Of a stretch of DNA of 64,000 bases, positions 7,315-26,834 are shown one piece after another (the stretch's first letter is position 1; each line of letters begins with the position of its first letter). This stretch comes from an uncultured Methanosarcinaceae archaeon (GTDB lineage: Archaea; Halobacteriota; Methanosarcinia; Methanosarcinales; Methanosarcinaceae), in NCBI GenBank assembly GCA_963721455.1, contig CAVRJG010000054.1, positions 128,001 through 192,000 of the forward strand, given 5' to 3'. A program made the translations under genes and the position numbers. Below the pieces are notes generated by a model. It had not been told where the DNA came from. It worked only from the letters and a program-made list of their open reading frames with translations, and did not search any database.

Positions 7315-7564
7315 CCGACCTTCCGCAGATGTCTTCAAGAAAATAACATCTCTCTTGCTATCGTTTTTGGATGTTTGCTCTAAAATTTGCAATTATTATC
7401 TCAACTGAAGCTTCCTGAAATATAAGTTAGAAGCTTTCAATGAAGATACAAGATTGAAAAGTGTAGGACATTTCAAAAAAACATGTTTGAATAAGCAGGG
7501 CAATTTTCAGAAAAACGATAGCAGAAAAAATTGTGAAAATTGAACGGACATCTGCGGAAGTCAG
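7315..7564. mobile_element. MITE family C, 250 bp, with 6-bp target duplication
   Basis: TIRs CCGACCTTCCGCAGATGTC / GACATCTGCGGAAGTCAG. CTCGCT duplicated at 7309-7314 and 7565-7570. Interrupts the IS5 transposase. Confidence 0.9.
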
Positions 7565-10297: not shown

Positions 10298-10450
10298 CTT
10301 ACTTTCGGCAGATAACTTGTTTTTCCTGATGTCTTTAGTGATAGCGTTTTGTTGGAAAACACATTACCCCCATACTAAACATTATTGCAAAAATAGTTTT
10401 GTTGTTTACATGTCTCATGAGATTCGAACCATATGTTAACCGCTCAGGAC
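10298..10450. mobile_element. Possible IS end remnant related to the family C TIR
   Basis: CTTACTTTCGGCAGATAAC resembles CTGACTTCCGCAGATGTC; no partner end seen. Confidence 0.35.
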
Positions 10451-10612
10451 TCTACATTTATTTGCATAATGTTTATAAAACGCAGTCACTTAATATATTC
10501 TAATTCTAATGTCGACCTGGCGAAAACTCAGAATCAATTTCCCTGTGTTCAGACCATATGCCCGAATCTATGTGAATTTCCCCTGTGTTAACATTCAAGA
10601 TAAATTTTATTA

Positions 10613-19445: not shown

Positions 19446-19578
19446 AAGAAAGCACTTCTAATTATTTTCTAAACATAAAGAACTATTTGAATCTCAGAAA
19501 TAAACTTGTTTCTAAACTATATAACATTTTTTACAAACATCGACTGGGGAAAATATTACCTGAGAAAATCTGATTAAA

Positions 19579-20578
19579 CTGACCTTACACAGATGTCTTC
19601 AAAAAATAACCTTTTTCATGCTATCGTTTTCAGGTAATAACCTAAAAATCTGAAATCATTATCTCGATTCTTACCCAAAAAAACAGAAGTGAAAACTCGT
19701 TAGTTGAATCACAAAGTCTAAAGATGTGAGAGATTTAAGAGATACAGATTACAATAATTCAATATGATTTTGACAAAAAAGATGTCATTAAAAATTGTGA
19801 AAATTGAAAAGACCTGTCGGGTAAGTAGGGAGGATTACTCCTCCTTTCTCCCCTAGGAACCGTACTTGAAAGTTTCCCTTCATACGGCTCGAGTGTTTTC
19901 AAACCCTTTCTGTATCAGGCACCAGTTATTTGCATAACTGATTTTGTGTTCCGGATAACAGCCCACTAACATAATTGTCTGTAAGCCTCTCACCTATTGG
20001 TGTCGTTGAGTATCTTACATTTGTAGGTTTGTTTCCATTCACACAAGAAAACACCATCAGTAAGTCTGCATCCTTTCGGATTGAGGCAAAGTTTGAACCT
20101 CTATCCAATCCATTACAGATTGGCATTCGCTTTTTACTGAATCCTCTACCCTCAATGCCATCGTTATCCCTCGCGGGAGTCCTACCCATAATGGGAGCAT
20201 TTAGGGCTTACCAAGTTCCATACTACGAATAATGTGAATACCTTAGAAGCCATCTATAAACCGAGAATCATTTGTCCATTTGCCATAATGTCCGCAGACC
20301 CATTACAGCCTGATTCTGTACCTTTTGGTTAAGCGTATCAGCCTGCTTTCGCTTATTCCACTTCACGATTCTTACGATGGTTCACTTTATGTTCTTCATA
20401 GTATTCGTATCCTAACCGATTACCAAAGTCAGGTTCCTTGATTTCTCGATAGTGTCCTGTGAGCTTCACACACAAATGTTACCATTTATGCATGTCACAG
20501 TAGGATTACCTCAAATGGAAGAGGTAGCGAATGGTGCAATTCATAGTATAGCTTCTTGTCGCACCTGCGGAAAGTGGG
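19579..20578. mobile_element. MITE family C carrying a group II intron in its right TIR
   Basis: Starts CTGACCTTACACAGATGTC and is homologous to 7315-7564. ATTAAA duplicated at 19573-19578 and 20579-20584. 251 bp once the intron is removed. Confidence 0.88.
19816..20564 (-). ncRNA. ORF-less group II intron (749 nt)
   Basis: 5' GTGCGACAAG; domain V GAGCCGTATGAAGGGAAACTTTCAAGTACGGTTC; domain VI ending ACCCGAC; no RT ORF. Confidence 0.93.
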
Positions 20579-20651
20579 ATTAAACTTCAAATGTGCCTGA
20601 TAAATTCTGGAAAGGATTTTCCCTGCCAGTTTATTTACTTCGGACACTGCC

Positions 20652-21767
20652 TTAAAGAGGGATCAGTTCGACGAGCATTCCGTCTTCAAATGGATATCTT
20701 TCAATAATGAGAAGCTTGGATCCAGAAGGTTCCAATTCTTCCTTAATTTCCTCTTTCAGCTCTTCAAGTGCCCACCAGGCGATTTCGATTTTCCCGTCTT
20801 TCACTTCAAACAATTCTGATGGGATTTCCATGTTCTGCAGGGTTTCTTCTGCAAGTTTCTGGTTCCCACCCTCAATTATCCCATATACGAGAGTGCCGTC
20901 TTCCGTGATTTCATCAAATTCTCTAGCCGTATTCTTTGCGATCCGCTGAAACCTTTTGCGGAGCTGGACTGCATCCTTGTAGGTTGAGGAGCAAAAATGC
21001 GTTCTTTTACATGCCGAAAAGGCCGTCTCGGCGTATTTACAGGACCCGGCAGCCGCACTGGCCGTGTCTGATTCAAGGCAAAAGCCGTTTTTCAGGAGAG
21101 CTTTTGAGTTATTATCGGAAAATTCCAGTTCATTCAGGTTAAGGAAAACACCCACTTCTTCTGCAAAATCTGCAACTTTTTCCGCTCCTTCAAGGGCAGG
21201 AATCTCAATTCCGGTTTCAATTCCCAGCTCTTTTGCATTTTGCAGGGCATCTGCATACGGGCTGTGCTTGAGATCTTTCCAGCTTTCCTGTGGCGGGTGT
21301 AAACGGATTTCGTCAAGGCCTGCATCTGCGAGTTTTTCAAGGACCTGCCTATCAGGAGCCAGAGAAGTATAAAGATGGATGTGGTGTTCTTTTCCGAAAG
21401 AAGCCTTTAGCATCTGGATATAATGAAGCACTCTTTCGATTTTCAGGAGGGGTTCGCCGCCTGTAATCCCTGTCCCGAGAGCATTCATAATCCCAGCTTC
21501 CTTCAGTAAATCCTCATCGTTTTTTATAGCCCTTTCATTCGCAAAAACAAGGTCTTTTCCACGCCTTTCATCGGAAAGCGGGCAGTAAAAACAACTTTTA
21601 GGACAAAGGCCCGTTACAAAGAGTACCATTTTGGCGCCCTCCTGGCAGAGCCTGCAACCTTCAGAAAGGTAACTGCAAAAAGAGCCAGTCTCGTCTTCAG
21701 TGAACTTTTCCATACCTGAACCTGCATATTCTTTTTTTATATATAAGGCTTGTTTTCGGATATCCAT
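20652..21767 (-). CDS. Radical SAM protein (conserved archaeal family)
   Basis: CPKSCFYC, ITGGEP, LDEIRLHP; true start may be 21712. Confidence 0.9.
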   Translation of the reverse strand: MDIRKQALYIKKEYAGSGMEKFTEDETGSFCSYLSEGCRLCQEGAKMVLFVTGLCPKSCFYCPLSDERRGKDLVFANERAIKNDEDLLKEAGIMNALGTGITGGEPLLKIERVLHYIQMLKASFGKEHHIHLYTSLAPDRQVLEKLADAGLDEIRLHPPQESWKDLKHSPYADALQNAKELGIETGIEIPALEGAEKVADFAEEVGVFLNLNELEFSDNNSKALLKNGFCLESDTASAAAGSCKYAETAFSACKRTHFCSSTYKDAVQLRKRFQRIAKNTAREFDEITEDGTLVYGIIEGGNQKLAEETLQNMEIPSELFEVKDGKIEIAWWALEELKEEIKEELEPSGSKLLIIERYPFEDGMLVELIPL

Positions 21768-26652: not shown

Positions 26653-26750
26653 AAGCTTCAGTAAAGGTAATAACTGCAAATTTTCGAATAATTCTCCAAA
26701 AACGATAACCGGAAAAATGTTATTTTTTGAAAACATCTGCGGGAAGTCAG
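26653..26750. mobile_element. Partial MITE family C (reverse orientation)
   Basis: Reverse complement CTGACTTCCCGCAGATGTTTTCAAAAAATAAC... aligns with about 100 bp of 7315 onward. Confidence 0.75.
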
Positions 26751-26834
26751 TATAAATACGGGCGCAGAAGATAGTTACTGATTTGATTTTCACTAATTTG
26801 CCGGCTCCTTTAAACTCAAGCCTGAGCAGTTTAT

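What the first reader, a model, noticed from the sequence alone, without database searches (positions are those of the whole stretch)
19579..20578. ORF-less group II intron that appears programmed to home into a MITE terminal inverted repeat
Seen: a 749-nt group II intron (19816-20564, minus strand) splits the right TIR of a 251-bp MITE (GACCT|CTGCGGAAAGTGGG), and the MITE keeps its ATTAAA duplication. The 5' exon ends CCCACTTTCCGCAG. The intron has CUGCGGA in a hairpin loop (UAAUG-GGUCUGCGGA-CAUUA, 20291-20297), which pairs perfectly with IBS1 UCCGCAG. It also has AAGUGG (20358-20363), which pairs with IBS2 CCACUU. The other family C TIRs here have GAC(C)TT instead of CCACTT and are empty. 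Established: ORF-less group II introns occur in Methanosarcina and were reported to insert into other intron ORFs. Inference: this lineage targets a multicopy transposon end, so a non-autonomous retroelement parasitises a non-autonomous DNA transposon, needing RT in trans and possibly hitch-hiking on the transposase.
Basis: partly seen in the sequence, partly recalled or inferred. Interest (0 to 1): 0.85.

Follow-up and report, generated by a model that had tools for sequence, protein, structure and literature searches.

The report
Intron that homes into transposon ends
A small self-splicing group II intron that has lost its own reverse transcriptase sits 14 bases inside the end repeat of a miniature transposon, and its many copies show that this transposon end is its regular landing site, a strategy already known from one bacterial intron but not described for archaea or for miniature transposons.

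Summary
Window 19816-20564 (minus strand) is a 749-nt ORF-less group II intron (two Rfam hits of 63.5 bits). It splits a 251-bp IS1634-family MITE (19579-20578, ATTAAA duplication on both sides) 14 nt from its tip.

The genome holds 8 copies at 100% rounded identity, diverged ORF-less copies, and three RT-encoding sister introns. Every copy is preceded by a CCNNCNTTCSGCAG-type 5' exon.

Of 14 distinct insertion sites, 12 lie in terminal repeats of IS1634-family MITEs or IS. One diverged lineage lies in an IS256-family repeat.

They lie in unpaired loops of a consensus fold. They co-vary with the 5' exon across four lineages here and 27 copies in relatives.

Perfectly matching tips are nearly saturated (6 of 8 occupied). 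The same tip precedes the intron in named Methanosarcina records and in 15 of 15 metagenome contigs.

One metagenome contig carries the precise empty site.

Homing into IS inverted repeats was shown for RmInt2/ISRm17, and trans-mobilised ORF-less introns for Thermosynechococcus. This is therefore a new archaeal member with a MITE twist. Hitch-hiking on the transposase remains only a hint.

The parts
19573..19578 (.). Target-site duplication ATTAAA at the far end of the MITE
   Evidence: Identical hexamer at both ends. Six-bp duplications flank 30 TIR pairs of this superfamily in the genome.
19579..19815 (-). 3' exon: interior and far terminal repeat of the MITE (237 nt)
   Evidence: The healed element aligns with four empty MITE copies and the MITE part of the C71 copy up to +232/+251. 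The far end agrees with the near end at 15 of 22 positions.
19816..20564 (-). ORF-less group II intron, 749 nt (GUGCG...CCGAC)
   Evidence: Rfam hits. Seven more copies at 100% rounded identity over all 749 nt, one scoring 5 bits lower. One metagenome contig joins 19815 to 20565 exactly.
19816..19892 (-). Domains V and VI of the intron
   Evidence: RF00029, 63.5 bits, model positions 1-77 of 77.
20291..20297 (-). EBS1 (CUGCGGA), pairs with IBS1 UCCGCAG
   Evidence: Sits in the 10-nt terminal loop of an 8-bp hairpin in the consensus fold of 28 sequences. Co-varies with the last 7 nt of the 5' exon: cognate 6.04 of 7 pairs, non-cognate 3.11 of 7. Lineage switches CUGCCGA/UCGGCAG and UACAGAA/UUCUGUA.
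20358..20363 (-). EBS2 (AAGUGG), pairs with IBS2 CCACUU
   Evidence: Unpaired internal loop in the consensus fold. Cognate 4.70 of 6 pairs, non-cognate 2.45 of 6. The RT-type lineage has AAGCAG opposite CUGCUU.
20377..20526 (-). Part of domain I matched by Rfam
   Evidence: RF02012, 63.5 bits, model positions 1-151 of 151.
20565..20578 (-). 5' exon: outermost 14 nt of the MITE terminal repeat (IBS2 + IBS1)
   Evidence: CCCACTTTCCGCAG. The host repeat begins 8-19 nt upstream of the insertion site, mostly at -13/-14, at the 11 IS1634-type sites. Loose ends of metagenome contigs start at 20578.
20579..20584 (.). Target-site duplication ATTAAA at the near end

Best explanation
The element is a deletion (delta-ORF) derivative of a chloroplast-like group II intron. 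Its natural homing site is the outermost 13-14 nt of the terminal inverted repeat of IS1634-family transposons and their MITEs.

Shown: the intron's EBS2 and EBS1 loops are complementary to TIR positions 2-14, and the intron always lies directly after position 14, reading inward. Sister lineages carry compensating EBS changes that match other TIR subfamilies, and in one case an IS256-family TIR.

Inferred: the spliced intron RNA reverse-splices into the DNA tip guided by EBS/IBS pairing. It is then copied by the reverse transcriptase/maturase of the RT-encoding sister intron acting in trans. The ORF-less intron keeps the stretch homologous to the first ~25 codons of the sister's ORF, where maturases are known to bind. 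The sister protein has no endonuclease domain, so priming would come from replication-fork DNA, as established for RmInt1-type introns.

A TIR offers the same target on both strands of each element. It is also multicopy and harmless to the host, which explains the choice.

In the window, read-through from the co-oriented gene that ends 73 nt upstream (20652-21767) could supply the precursor RNA. This is inferred.
For: Real intron.

Copy census: 8 copies at 100% rounded identity, plus copies at 97, 96, 91, 91 and 80%, plus 3 RT-type copies.

Flanks: 16 of the 17 copies listed have a CCNNCNTTCSGCAG-type 5' exon; the 17th is the C49 lineage with its own IS256-type exon.

Host elements: of 14 distinct insertion sites, 12 have an IS/MITE repeat family spanning the healed junction. 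It starts 8-19 nt (mostly 13-14 nt) upstream at the 11 IS1634-type sites, and 22 nt upstream for the IS256 case. These hosts belong to at least six dissimilar families, while the introns are identical, so the intron moved on its own.

Transposon identity: a full-length element with the same tip, a 6-bp duplication and an IS1634 transposase (NF033559, 360 bits).

EBS covariation: four lineages in this genome; 27 copies in relatives, cognate 6.04/7 and 4.70/6 against non-cognate 3.11/7 and 2.45/6. Both motifs are unpaired in the consensus fold.

Occupancy: 13/13 Watson-Crick sites, 6 occupied and 2 empty; 12 WC + 1 GU, 3 occupied and 1 empty; every weaker class unoccupied, except one tip with two EBS2 mismatches that is occupied (counted twice because duplicated, against 22 empty).

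Other genomes: all 7 relatives with at least 90% identity over nt 1-330 have TIR-like 5' exons. So do 12 of the 17 loci of named records that show at least 14 nt of flank (19 loci in all; Methanosarcina, Methanosarcinaceae and Methanobacteriota MAGs), and 15 of 15 metagenome contigs.

Empty site: one contig of run X1 joins 19815 to 20565 exactly.

Sister protein: 497 aa with RVT_N + RVT_1 + GIIM and no HNH domain, TIGR04416 at 353.7 bits, three near-identical copies. Closest solved structure is chain 6me0_C at 508.7 bits.

Precedents: RmInt2 in ISRm17 inverted repeats; trans-mobilised ORF-less introns and insertion into IS.
Against: Nothing here demonstrates splicing, reverse splicing or trans-mobilisation.

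The contigs from RNA libraries that cover the intron could come from contaminating DNA.

Two of the 14 sites (C13, C8) show only the 14-nt match, with no transposon sequence downstream. About 1.3 such 14-mers with at most one mismatch are expected by chance in the genome (my own arithmetic), so these may be ectopic sites.

The sister intron is only 83-84% identical over nt 1-588 and 71% over domains V-VI, so its protein may not serve this RNA.

The TIR tip boundary (-14) coincides with the edge of IBS2 (-13). That similarity starts there is therefore not independent proof of a transposon boundary at sites lacking downstream homology.

The 5' exons in other species were judged TIR-like by sequence only. 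Their host elements were not delimited.

The +1 (IBS3 or delta') interaction was not mapped.
Confidence: 0.8

Rival explanations
1. Passive passenger: the intron entered one MITE once, and its copies were spread by transposition or duplication of the host DNA, not by homing.
For: C44 and C71 are one insertion duplicated with about 4 kb of flank at 99.1%. C25 and C12 likewise, 6.7 kb at 99.1%. C15a and C15b share the tip, the intron and 176 nt of MITE at 99.6%, with different upstream flanks.
Against: The copies at 100% rounded identity sit in host elements that share little beyond the tip. These are 251-bp, 142-bp and TAAATTT-type MITEs, a 1.7-kb IS, a bare TIR and two non-repeat sites, and host identities are 66-80% or absent. 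Intron and host therefore did not diverge together.
Confidence: 0.05
2. Relic: the copies are fossils of a past burst, and the intron is no longer able to splice or move.
For: No ORF. The sister protein is from an intron only 83-84% identical. The C25/C12 lineage has a mutated 5' splice site (AUUCG), and none of the 35 tips that match its EBS perfectly is occupied.
Against: Eight copies at 100% rounded identity, one of them scoring 5 bits lower. Intact GUGCG and domains V-VI. An empty allele of this very site exists in a metagenome, which points to a recent insertion. The same lineage occurs at many different sites in other species.
Confidence: 0.1
3. Chance-driven association: the intron takes any 13-nt match, and TIRs merely happen to be the only repeated sequence that matches. 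There would then be no adaptation to transposon ends.
For: Two occupied sites (C13, C8) show no transposon context. Recognition appears to need only positions -13 to +1.
Against: Three separately retargeted lineages all land inside terminal repeats, of two IS1634 subfamilies and of one IS256-family element. The tip target is kept across species. Repeated retargeting onto transposon ends is hard to get without selection for such sites.
Confidence: 0.05

Closest known systems
RmInt2 group II intron in the inverted repeats of ISRm17 (Sinorhizobium meliloti GR4; PMC4615759, passages read)
   Same: All copies lie in the inverted repeats of an insertion sequence. IBS1-3 (-14 to +1) lie inside the repeat. 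Each element offers two sites on opposite strands. Four EBS2/IBS2 pairs are tolerated, as at C44/C71 here.
   Different: RmInt2 is bacterial, RmInt1-related and encodes its own protein. Its host is an autonomous IS, and retrohoming was shown experimentally. The intron here is archaeal and ORF-less, its sister protein is closest to a Thermosynechococcus-type maturase, its hosts are mostly MITEs, and nothing was tested at the bench.
Thermosynechococcus elongatus TeI3/TeI4 introns (PMC2882425, passages read)
   Same: Naturally ORF-less introns are mobilised in trans by proteins of related introns. Families are defined by diverged EBS sequences. Some insert at a conserved site in an IS or in another intron. 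The sister protein here matches PDB chain 6me0_C at 508.7 bits; that this chain is the TeI4h protein is my recollection.
   Different: TeI4h protein has an endonuclease domain, whereas the protein here stops before it: it aligns to chain residues 22-479 of 562 and has no HNH hit. Targeting of a terminal repeat or of MITEs is not mentioned in the passages I saw.
RmInt1 in ISRm2011-2 (search-listing abstracts; passages of PMC4615759)
   Same: A protein without endonuclease domain, a homing site inside a multicopy IS, and use of the lagging-strand template at replication forks.
   Different: In the passages read its target is given only as an ISRm2011-2 DNA target, contrasted there with RmInt2's use of IS inverted repeats. 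That it lies inside the IS body is my recollection.
Nested group II introns of Methanosarcina acetivorans (Dai and Zimmerly 2003; paper not held; known to me only from the passages citing it in PMC4424553 and PMC2882425)
   Same: Same genus by record titles of related loci. Mix of ORF-less and RT-encoding introns that home into other mobile DNA, with no coding exons.
   Different: The reported targets are other introns. Whether transposon-end targets were noted there I could not check.

Membership tests
Group II intron (ribozyme) | Domain V-VI consensus and a conserved domain I core | tested here: met
   RF00029 at 63.5 bits (gathering 40) and RF02012 at 63.5 bits (gathering 34), both over the full model length.
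Group II intron (ribozyme) | Boundary consensus: 5' GUGYG and 3' AY | tested here: met
   GUGCG...CCGAC. One metagenome contig joins exactly at these boundaries.
Group II intron (ribozyme) | EBS1/EBS2 loops in domain I complementary to the 5' exon | tested here: met
   7/7 and 6/6 pairs in the window copy. Covariation across 27 copies. Unpaired positions in the consensus fold.
Group II intron (ribozyme) | Self-splicing or protein-assisted splicing activity | not testable with these tools
   RNA-library contigs cover the intron, but they show neither splicing nor even transcription.
ORF-less (delta-ORF) derivative of an RT-encoding intron | No protein-coding ORF, and collinear with an RT-encoding relative apart from a deletion in domain IV | tested here: met
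   Longest ORFs inside are 85-87 aa. It aligns to the 2143-nt sister over nt 1-588 and 639-732, a difference of 1394 nt. The homologue of the first ~25 codons is retained.
IS1634-family MITE | Terminal inverted repeats shared with an autonomous element of the family | tested here: met
   The same 14-nt tip type is found on the 1940-bp element C53:129660-131599, which encodes an IS1634 transposase (NF033559, 360.5 bits).
IS1634-family MITE | Short, no transposase, flanked by a target duplication of the family's length | tested here: met
   251 nt after removal of the intron, with ATTAAA on both sides. Twenty-five of the 30 TSD-flanked TIR pairs in the genome are 142-278 bp.
IS1634-family MITE | Mobilised by the family's transposase | not testable with these tools
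   Only inferred, from multiple copies with different duplications.
Group II introns that home into IS inverted repeats (RmInt2-like strategy) | Most copies lie inside terminal repeats, with the IBS inside the repeat | tested here: met
   12 of 14 distinct sites.
Group II introns that home into IS inverted repeats (RmInt2-like strategy) | Experimental retrohoming into the repeat | not testable with these tools
Chloroplast-like (CL, IIB1) intron class | Intron-encoded protein groups with CL proteins | tested here: inconclusive
   The best solved relative is 6me0_C at 508.7 bits, against LtrA at 153.1 bits. No phylogeny was built, and the class label of 6me0 is recalled. PMC8919778 (passages) says CL1A is the commonest archaeal type.
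Chloroplast-like (CL, IIB1) intron class | IIB1 RNA secondary-structure features | not tested
   Only the EBS region of domain I was folded.

The most novel reading that the evidence does not exclude
The relationship runs both ways and is an arms race. Intron insertion splits the terminal repeat and disables that end. This would drive MITE subfamilies to vary tip positions 2-7 and 10, and drive intron lineages to retarget their EBS2/EBS1 loops. Meanwhile some MITE::intron composites are still moved by the transposase, so a reverse-transcriptase-less intron spreads by DNA transposition as well as by retrohoming. The one hint is C15a/C15b. Tip, intron and 176 nt of MITE are 99.6% identical (98.3% in the MITE part), the upstream flanks differ, and the nearest empty copy is only about 89-90% identical.
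Probability: 0.15. Interest if true: 0.7.

Novelty: new member of a known kind. Interest (0 to 1): 0.5.

Why it matters
It shows in an archaeon, with natural replicates, how a retroelement without its own enzyme can persist. It aims at the one sequence that a DNA transposon must conserve and multiplies for it.

Three lineages retargeted to different transposon ends give a ready-made series of EBS/IBS pairs for testing target rules of endonuclease-less introns. Methanosarcina is, from my own knowledge, genetically tractable.

It also warns annotators that broken or oversized MITEs and IS ends in Methanosarcina may hold introns.

It does not change the current picture of group II intron biology, because the strategy was shown for RmInt2.

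Tried and rejected
Passive spread with the host MITE was rejected: identical introns sit in dissimilar hosts.

A strict search for the far terminal repeat missed the window's own far end, which has 5 mismatches against a threshold of 4. BLAST of healed junctions replaced it. My first repeat-depth profile was muddled by self-hits and was not used.

Mapping an EBS3 or delta partner for exon position +1 was abandoned. The +1 base is A in 11 and T in 1 of the 12 ORF-less copies listed, and G in the 2 RT-type copies listed. The 7 relatives with a recovered 3' end were all A. That is too little variation.

Promoter and terminator scans gave counts near the shuffle means and use a bacterial consensus, so they were not used.

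Sequencing runs: the listed holders carry at most 0.49 of the sampled words, roughly the intron's share of the stretch. No RNA contig joined the exons, so there is no evidence either way on splicing in vivo.

Literature searches found no paper describing group II introns in Methanosarcina transposon ends or in MITE ends. This covers only the held library. Dai and Zimmerly 2003 and Simon et al. 2008 are not held, and supplements are closed.

The 9-of-14 resemblance between the intron's last 14 nt and the TIR tip, which produced spurious BLAST extensions, was treated as chance.

Not attempted: protein phylogeny of the RT, strand bias relative to replication, delimiting host elements in other species.

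Full report
**What is in the window.**
Read on the minus strand, the stretch runs TTTAAT, then CCCACTTTCCGCAG, then GUGCGAC ... CCCGAC, then AGGTC ... AAGGTCAG, then TTTAAT. Rfam finds two group II intron signatures on that strand. RF02012 (a domain I-IV model) matches 20377-20526, and RF00029 (domains V-VI) matches 19816-19892. Both score 63.5 bits over their full model length.

Without the intron, 19579-20578 is a 251-nt element. It has ATTAAA on both sides, and its ends agree at 15 of the first 22 positions. It aligns over its whole length with four empty MITE copies elsewhere in the genome and with the MITE part of the intron-bearing C71 copy, at 66-69% identity and E down to 8e-20. The longest ORFs inside the intron are 85-87 aa. 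The element lies between two minus-strand ORFs, 73 nt behind the stop of the 371-aa ORF at 20652-21767.

**The transposon.**
The window's assembly is G000: 3.94 Mb in 73 contigs, with the window at C54:128001-192000. A tip pattern CCNNCNTTCSGCAG in inverted pairs gives 30 pairs with an identical 6-bp duplication. Twenty-five of these are 142-278 bp, in size classes of 142, 233-237, 248-251, 258-260 and 277-278 bp. Two are MITEs enlarged by an intron (1001 and 2403 bp). Three are long: 1940, 3045 and 3444 bp.

The 1940-bp element encodes a 521-aa protein. It matches the IS1634 transposase model at 360.5 bits, with Pfam DUF4277 plus DDE_Tnp_1. The small elements are therefore MITEs of an IS1634-family group.

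**All copies of the intron.**
The genome gives 21 matches to the intron:
- 8 copies at 100% over all 749 nt, one of which scores 5 bits lower;
- copies at 97, 96, 91, 91 and 80%;
- three long copies that match nt 1-588 at 83-84% and nt 639-732 at 71%;
- a 166-nt fragment;
- one distant match at 68%.

The long copies are 2143-2148 nt. They carry an open frame for a 497-aa protein with RVT_N, RVT_1 and GIIM, no HNH domain, and TIGR04416 at 353.7 bits. tblastn finds three near-identical copies of this protein and one 56%-identical RT elsewhere.

The closest solved chain is 6me0_C, at 508.7 bits, aligned to its residues 22-479 of 562. From memory, that chain is the TeI4h protein of Thermosynechococcus. 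That protein has an endonuclease domain (PMC2882425 passage), and the protein here ends before that part.

The ORF-less intron keeps the homologue of the first ~25 codons. It is therefore a deletion derivative, about 1.39 kb shorter.

**Where the copies sit.**
Sixteen of the 17 listed copies are preceded by a CCNNCNTTCSGCAG-type 5' exon. The 17th, C49, has a different exon. I removed each intron in silico and searched the healed junctions against the genome. Duplicates were identified by direct comparison of flanks: C44=C71 over about 4 kb at 99.1%, and C25=C12 over 6.7 kb at 99.1%. That leaves 14 distinct sites.
- Eleven sites lie in IS1634-type MITEs or IS. The repeat family begins 8-19 nt upstream of the insertion point, mostly at -13/-14.
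  - Seven of the nine sites of the main lineage: the window MITE, a TAAATTT-type MITE, a 1.7-kb element with a frameshifted transposase, the 250-bp family, a bare repeat, and two 142-bp MITEs.
  - All three RT-type sites, in 260-bp and 237-bp MITEs.
  - The C25/C12 site.
- One site holds the 80% lineage (C49). It lies 22 nt inside the 27-nt inverted repeat of a 1.27-kb IS256-family element (NF033543, 271 bits).
- Two sites (C13, C8) show only the 14-nt match.

The hosts of the identical introns share little beyond the tip. The intron therefore reached them independently and recently.

**EBS1 and EBS2.**
An RNAalifold consensus of 28 sequences (the window copy plus 27 copies from relatives) places CUGCGGA in the 10-nt loop of an 8-bp hairpin. 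It places AAGUGG in an unpaired internal loop.

Within this genome the loops change together with the exon:

| Lineage | EBS1 / IBS1 | EBS2 / IBS2 |
|---|---|---|
| Main ORF-less | CUGCGGA / UCCGCAG | AAGUGG / CCACUU |
| RT-type | CUGCCGA / UCGGCAG | AAGCAG / CUGCUU |
| C25/C12 | CUGCCGA / UCGGCAG | AAGUAG / CUGCAU (5 of 6 pairs) |
| C49 | UACAGAA / UUCUGUA | not assigned |

Across 27 copies, cognate pairs average 6.04 of 7 (EBS1) and 4.70 of 6 (EBS2). Non-cognate combinations (702) average 3.11 and 2.45. The 19 copies at 80% identity or less, which have unrelated exons, show the same contrast: 5.95 and 4.47 against 3.01 and 2.02. The registers were fixed from the reference, so these are conservative counts.

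**Occupancy.**
The exact 14-mer occurs 7 times. Five occurrences are followed by the intron, two of them in a small duplicated stretch of C59. With one mismatch there are 6 sites, 4 of them occupied. Scored as RNA-DNA pairing, the counts are:
- 13/13 Watson-Crick sites: 6 occupied, 2 empty;
- 12 WC + 1 GU: 3 occupied, 1 empty;
- 11 WC + 2 mismatches: 2 occupied (one duplicated event), 22 empty;
- all weaker classes: none occupied.

The RT-type lineage occupies 3 of 17 perfect sites. The C25/C12 lineage has a mutated 5' end (AUUCG) and occupies none of 35 perfect sites.

**Other genomes.**
In 121 genomes of the same family, 47 have a match (39 of 88 high-quality ones; 10 of 16 genera; G000 included). 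All 7 copies at 90% or more over nt 1-330, from three genera, have TIR-like 5' exons. One of them (L028) is more diverged, and another (L027) appears shifted by one base. The copies at 79% or less have other exons.

A 26-nt pattern from the intron's 5' end finds 19 loci in named records. Twelve are in Methanosarcina, Methanosarcinaceae or Methanobacteriota MAG records and have TIR-like exons, each with a different upstream flank. Of the seven others, two show under 14 nt of flank. The remaining five, in Methanoperedens, an uncultured archaeon and a contig binned as Bacteroidetes, end in ...CCG or ...TCG and, where readable, have a different EBS1.

A 29-nt pattern finds 15 metagenome contigs, and all 15 have TIR-like exons. 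In four relatives whose 3' end was recovered, the 3' exon begins ATGT or AT, as the repeat interior does here. I did not delimit the host elements in those genomes.

**Reads.**
The listed runs hold at most 0.49 of the sampled words of a 1.6-kb stretch, about the intron's share. One contig of X1 (a freshwater metagenome, kind guessed as DNA; 175 nt, depth about 6, one differing letter) joins 19815 to 20565 with 48 nt on the short side. This is the precise empty site of this locus. Contigs from three RNA libraries cover the intron at up to 100% identity. Loose ends begin at 20578, the tip, and at 19815. These show presence and boundaries. They do not show transcription or splicing.

**Mechanism.**
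Shown: complementarity, position, covariation, saturation, conservation, and a precise empty allele.

Inferred from established group II intron biology: reverse splicing into the tip guided by EBS/IBS pairing; cDNA synthesis by the sister protein in trans, as shown for Thermosynechococcus ORF-less introns (passages); and priming at replication forks because the protein lacks an endonuclease, as for RmInt1 (abstracts).

A terminal repeat gives two sites per element on opposite strands. This point was made for RmInt2.

**Comparison and novelty.**
RmInt2 of Sinorhizobium meliloti lies in the inverted repeats of ISRm17, and its authors state the advantage of such targets (PMC4615759, passages). 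Mohr et al. describe ORF-less introns mobilised in trans, EBS-defined families, and insertion at a conserved site of an IS or another intron (PMC2882425, passages). Nested introns in Methanosarcina acetivorans are cited in PMC4424553 (passage); the original paper is not held.

My five literature searches found nothing on transposon-end or MITE targets in archaea, within the held library only. I therefore file this as a new member of a known kind. It has three points of interest: an archaeal host, non-autonomous partners on both sides, and three lineages retargeted to different transposon ends.

**Hitch-hiking.**
C15a and C15b are 99.6% identical from the tip through the intron to +176 of the MITE, with 3 differences in those 176 nt. 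Their upstream flanks differ, and the nearest empty copy is about 89-90% identical. Two histories fit this: a composite moved by the transposase, or a recent MITE duplication followed by two homing events. C15b is also truncated at +176. I leave it as a hint.

Noticed in passing
G000 C49:3888-4646 (-), locus L076; family example L075:98-1367: An 80%-identical ORF-less intron lineage sits 22 nt inside the 27-nt terminal inverted repeat of a 1.27-kb IS256-family element. Its EBS1 is UACAGAA, matching UUCUGUA. This is a second IS family targeted at its end.
   Followed up: yes
G000 C25:9190-9940 and C12:48373-49124: A 91%-identical ORF-less lineage whose EBS1/EBS2 match the commonest tip (CCTACTTTCGGCAG; 35 empty perfect sites). 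Its 5' splice site reads AUUCG, so it looks dead. The two copies are one event inside a 6.7-kb duplication.
   Followed up: partly
G000 C59:1454-2600: The upstream flank, the tip and the first 166 nt of the intron are repeated about 384 nt before a full copy. This is either a local duplication or an assembly artefact on a 6.3-kb contig.
   Followed up: no
G057:C1 around 2145445-2146845, with three similar places: Matches to intron nt 1-124, 1-575 and 160-568 follow each other closely, four times in one relative's genome. This looks like introns nested in introns, the pattern reported for Methanosarcina acetivorans.
   Followed up: no
window 7315-7564, about 10298-10524, and 26653-26752: Further members of the same transposon superfamily without an intron: a ~250-bp MITE with tips CCGACCTTCCGCAG / CTGACTTCCGCAG, a copy of the 237-bp family, and a partial copy.
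   Followed up: partly
window 19816-19829: The last 14 nt of the intron (CCUACUUACCCGAC) resemble the transposon tip at 9 of 14 positions. This caused spurious BLAST extensions. Probably chance.
   Followed up: no
L066 (record titled Bacteroidetes bacterium MAG) and L063, L064, L069, L073 (Candidatus Methanoperedens): The same intron 5' end occurs in Methanoperedens records with different 5' exons. It also occurs on a 2-kb contig binned as Bacteroidetes, which is most likely a binning error or possibly a transfer.
   Followed up: no
G000 C35:15188-16963: A second, divergent group II intron with an RT 56% identical to the sister protein. Its targets were not examined.
   Followed up: no
window 20652-21767 (-): A 371-aa ORF ends 73 nt upstream of the MITE tip, on the same strand as the intron. 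Read-through from it could provide the intron's precursor transcript.
   Followed up: no
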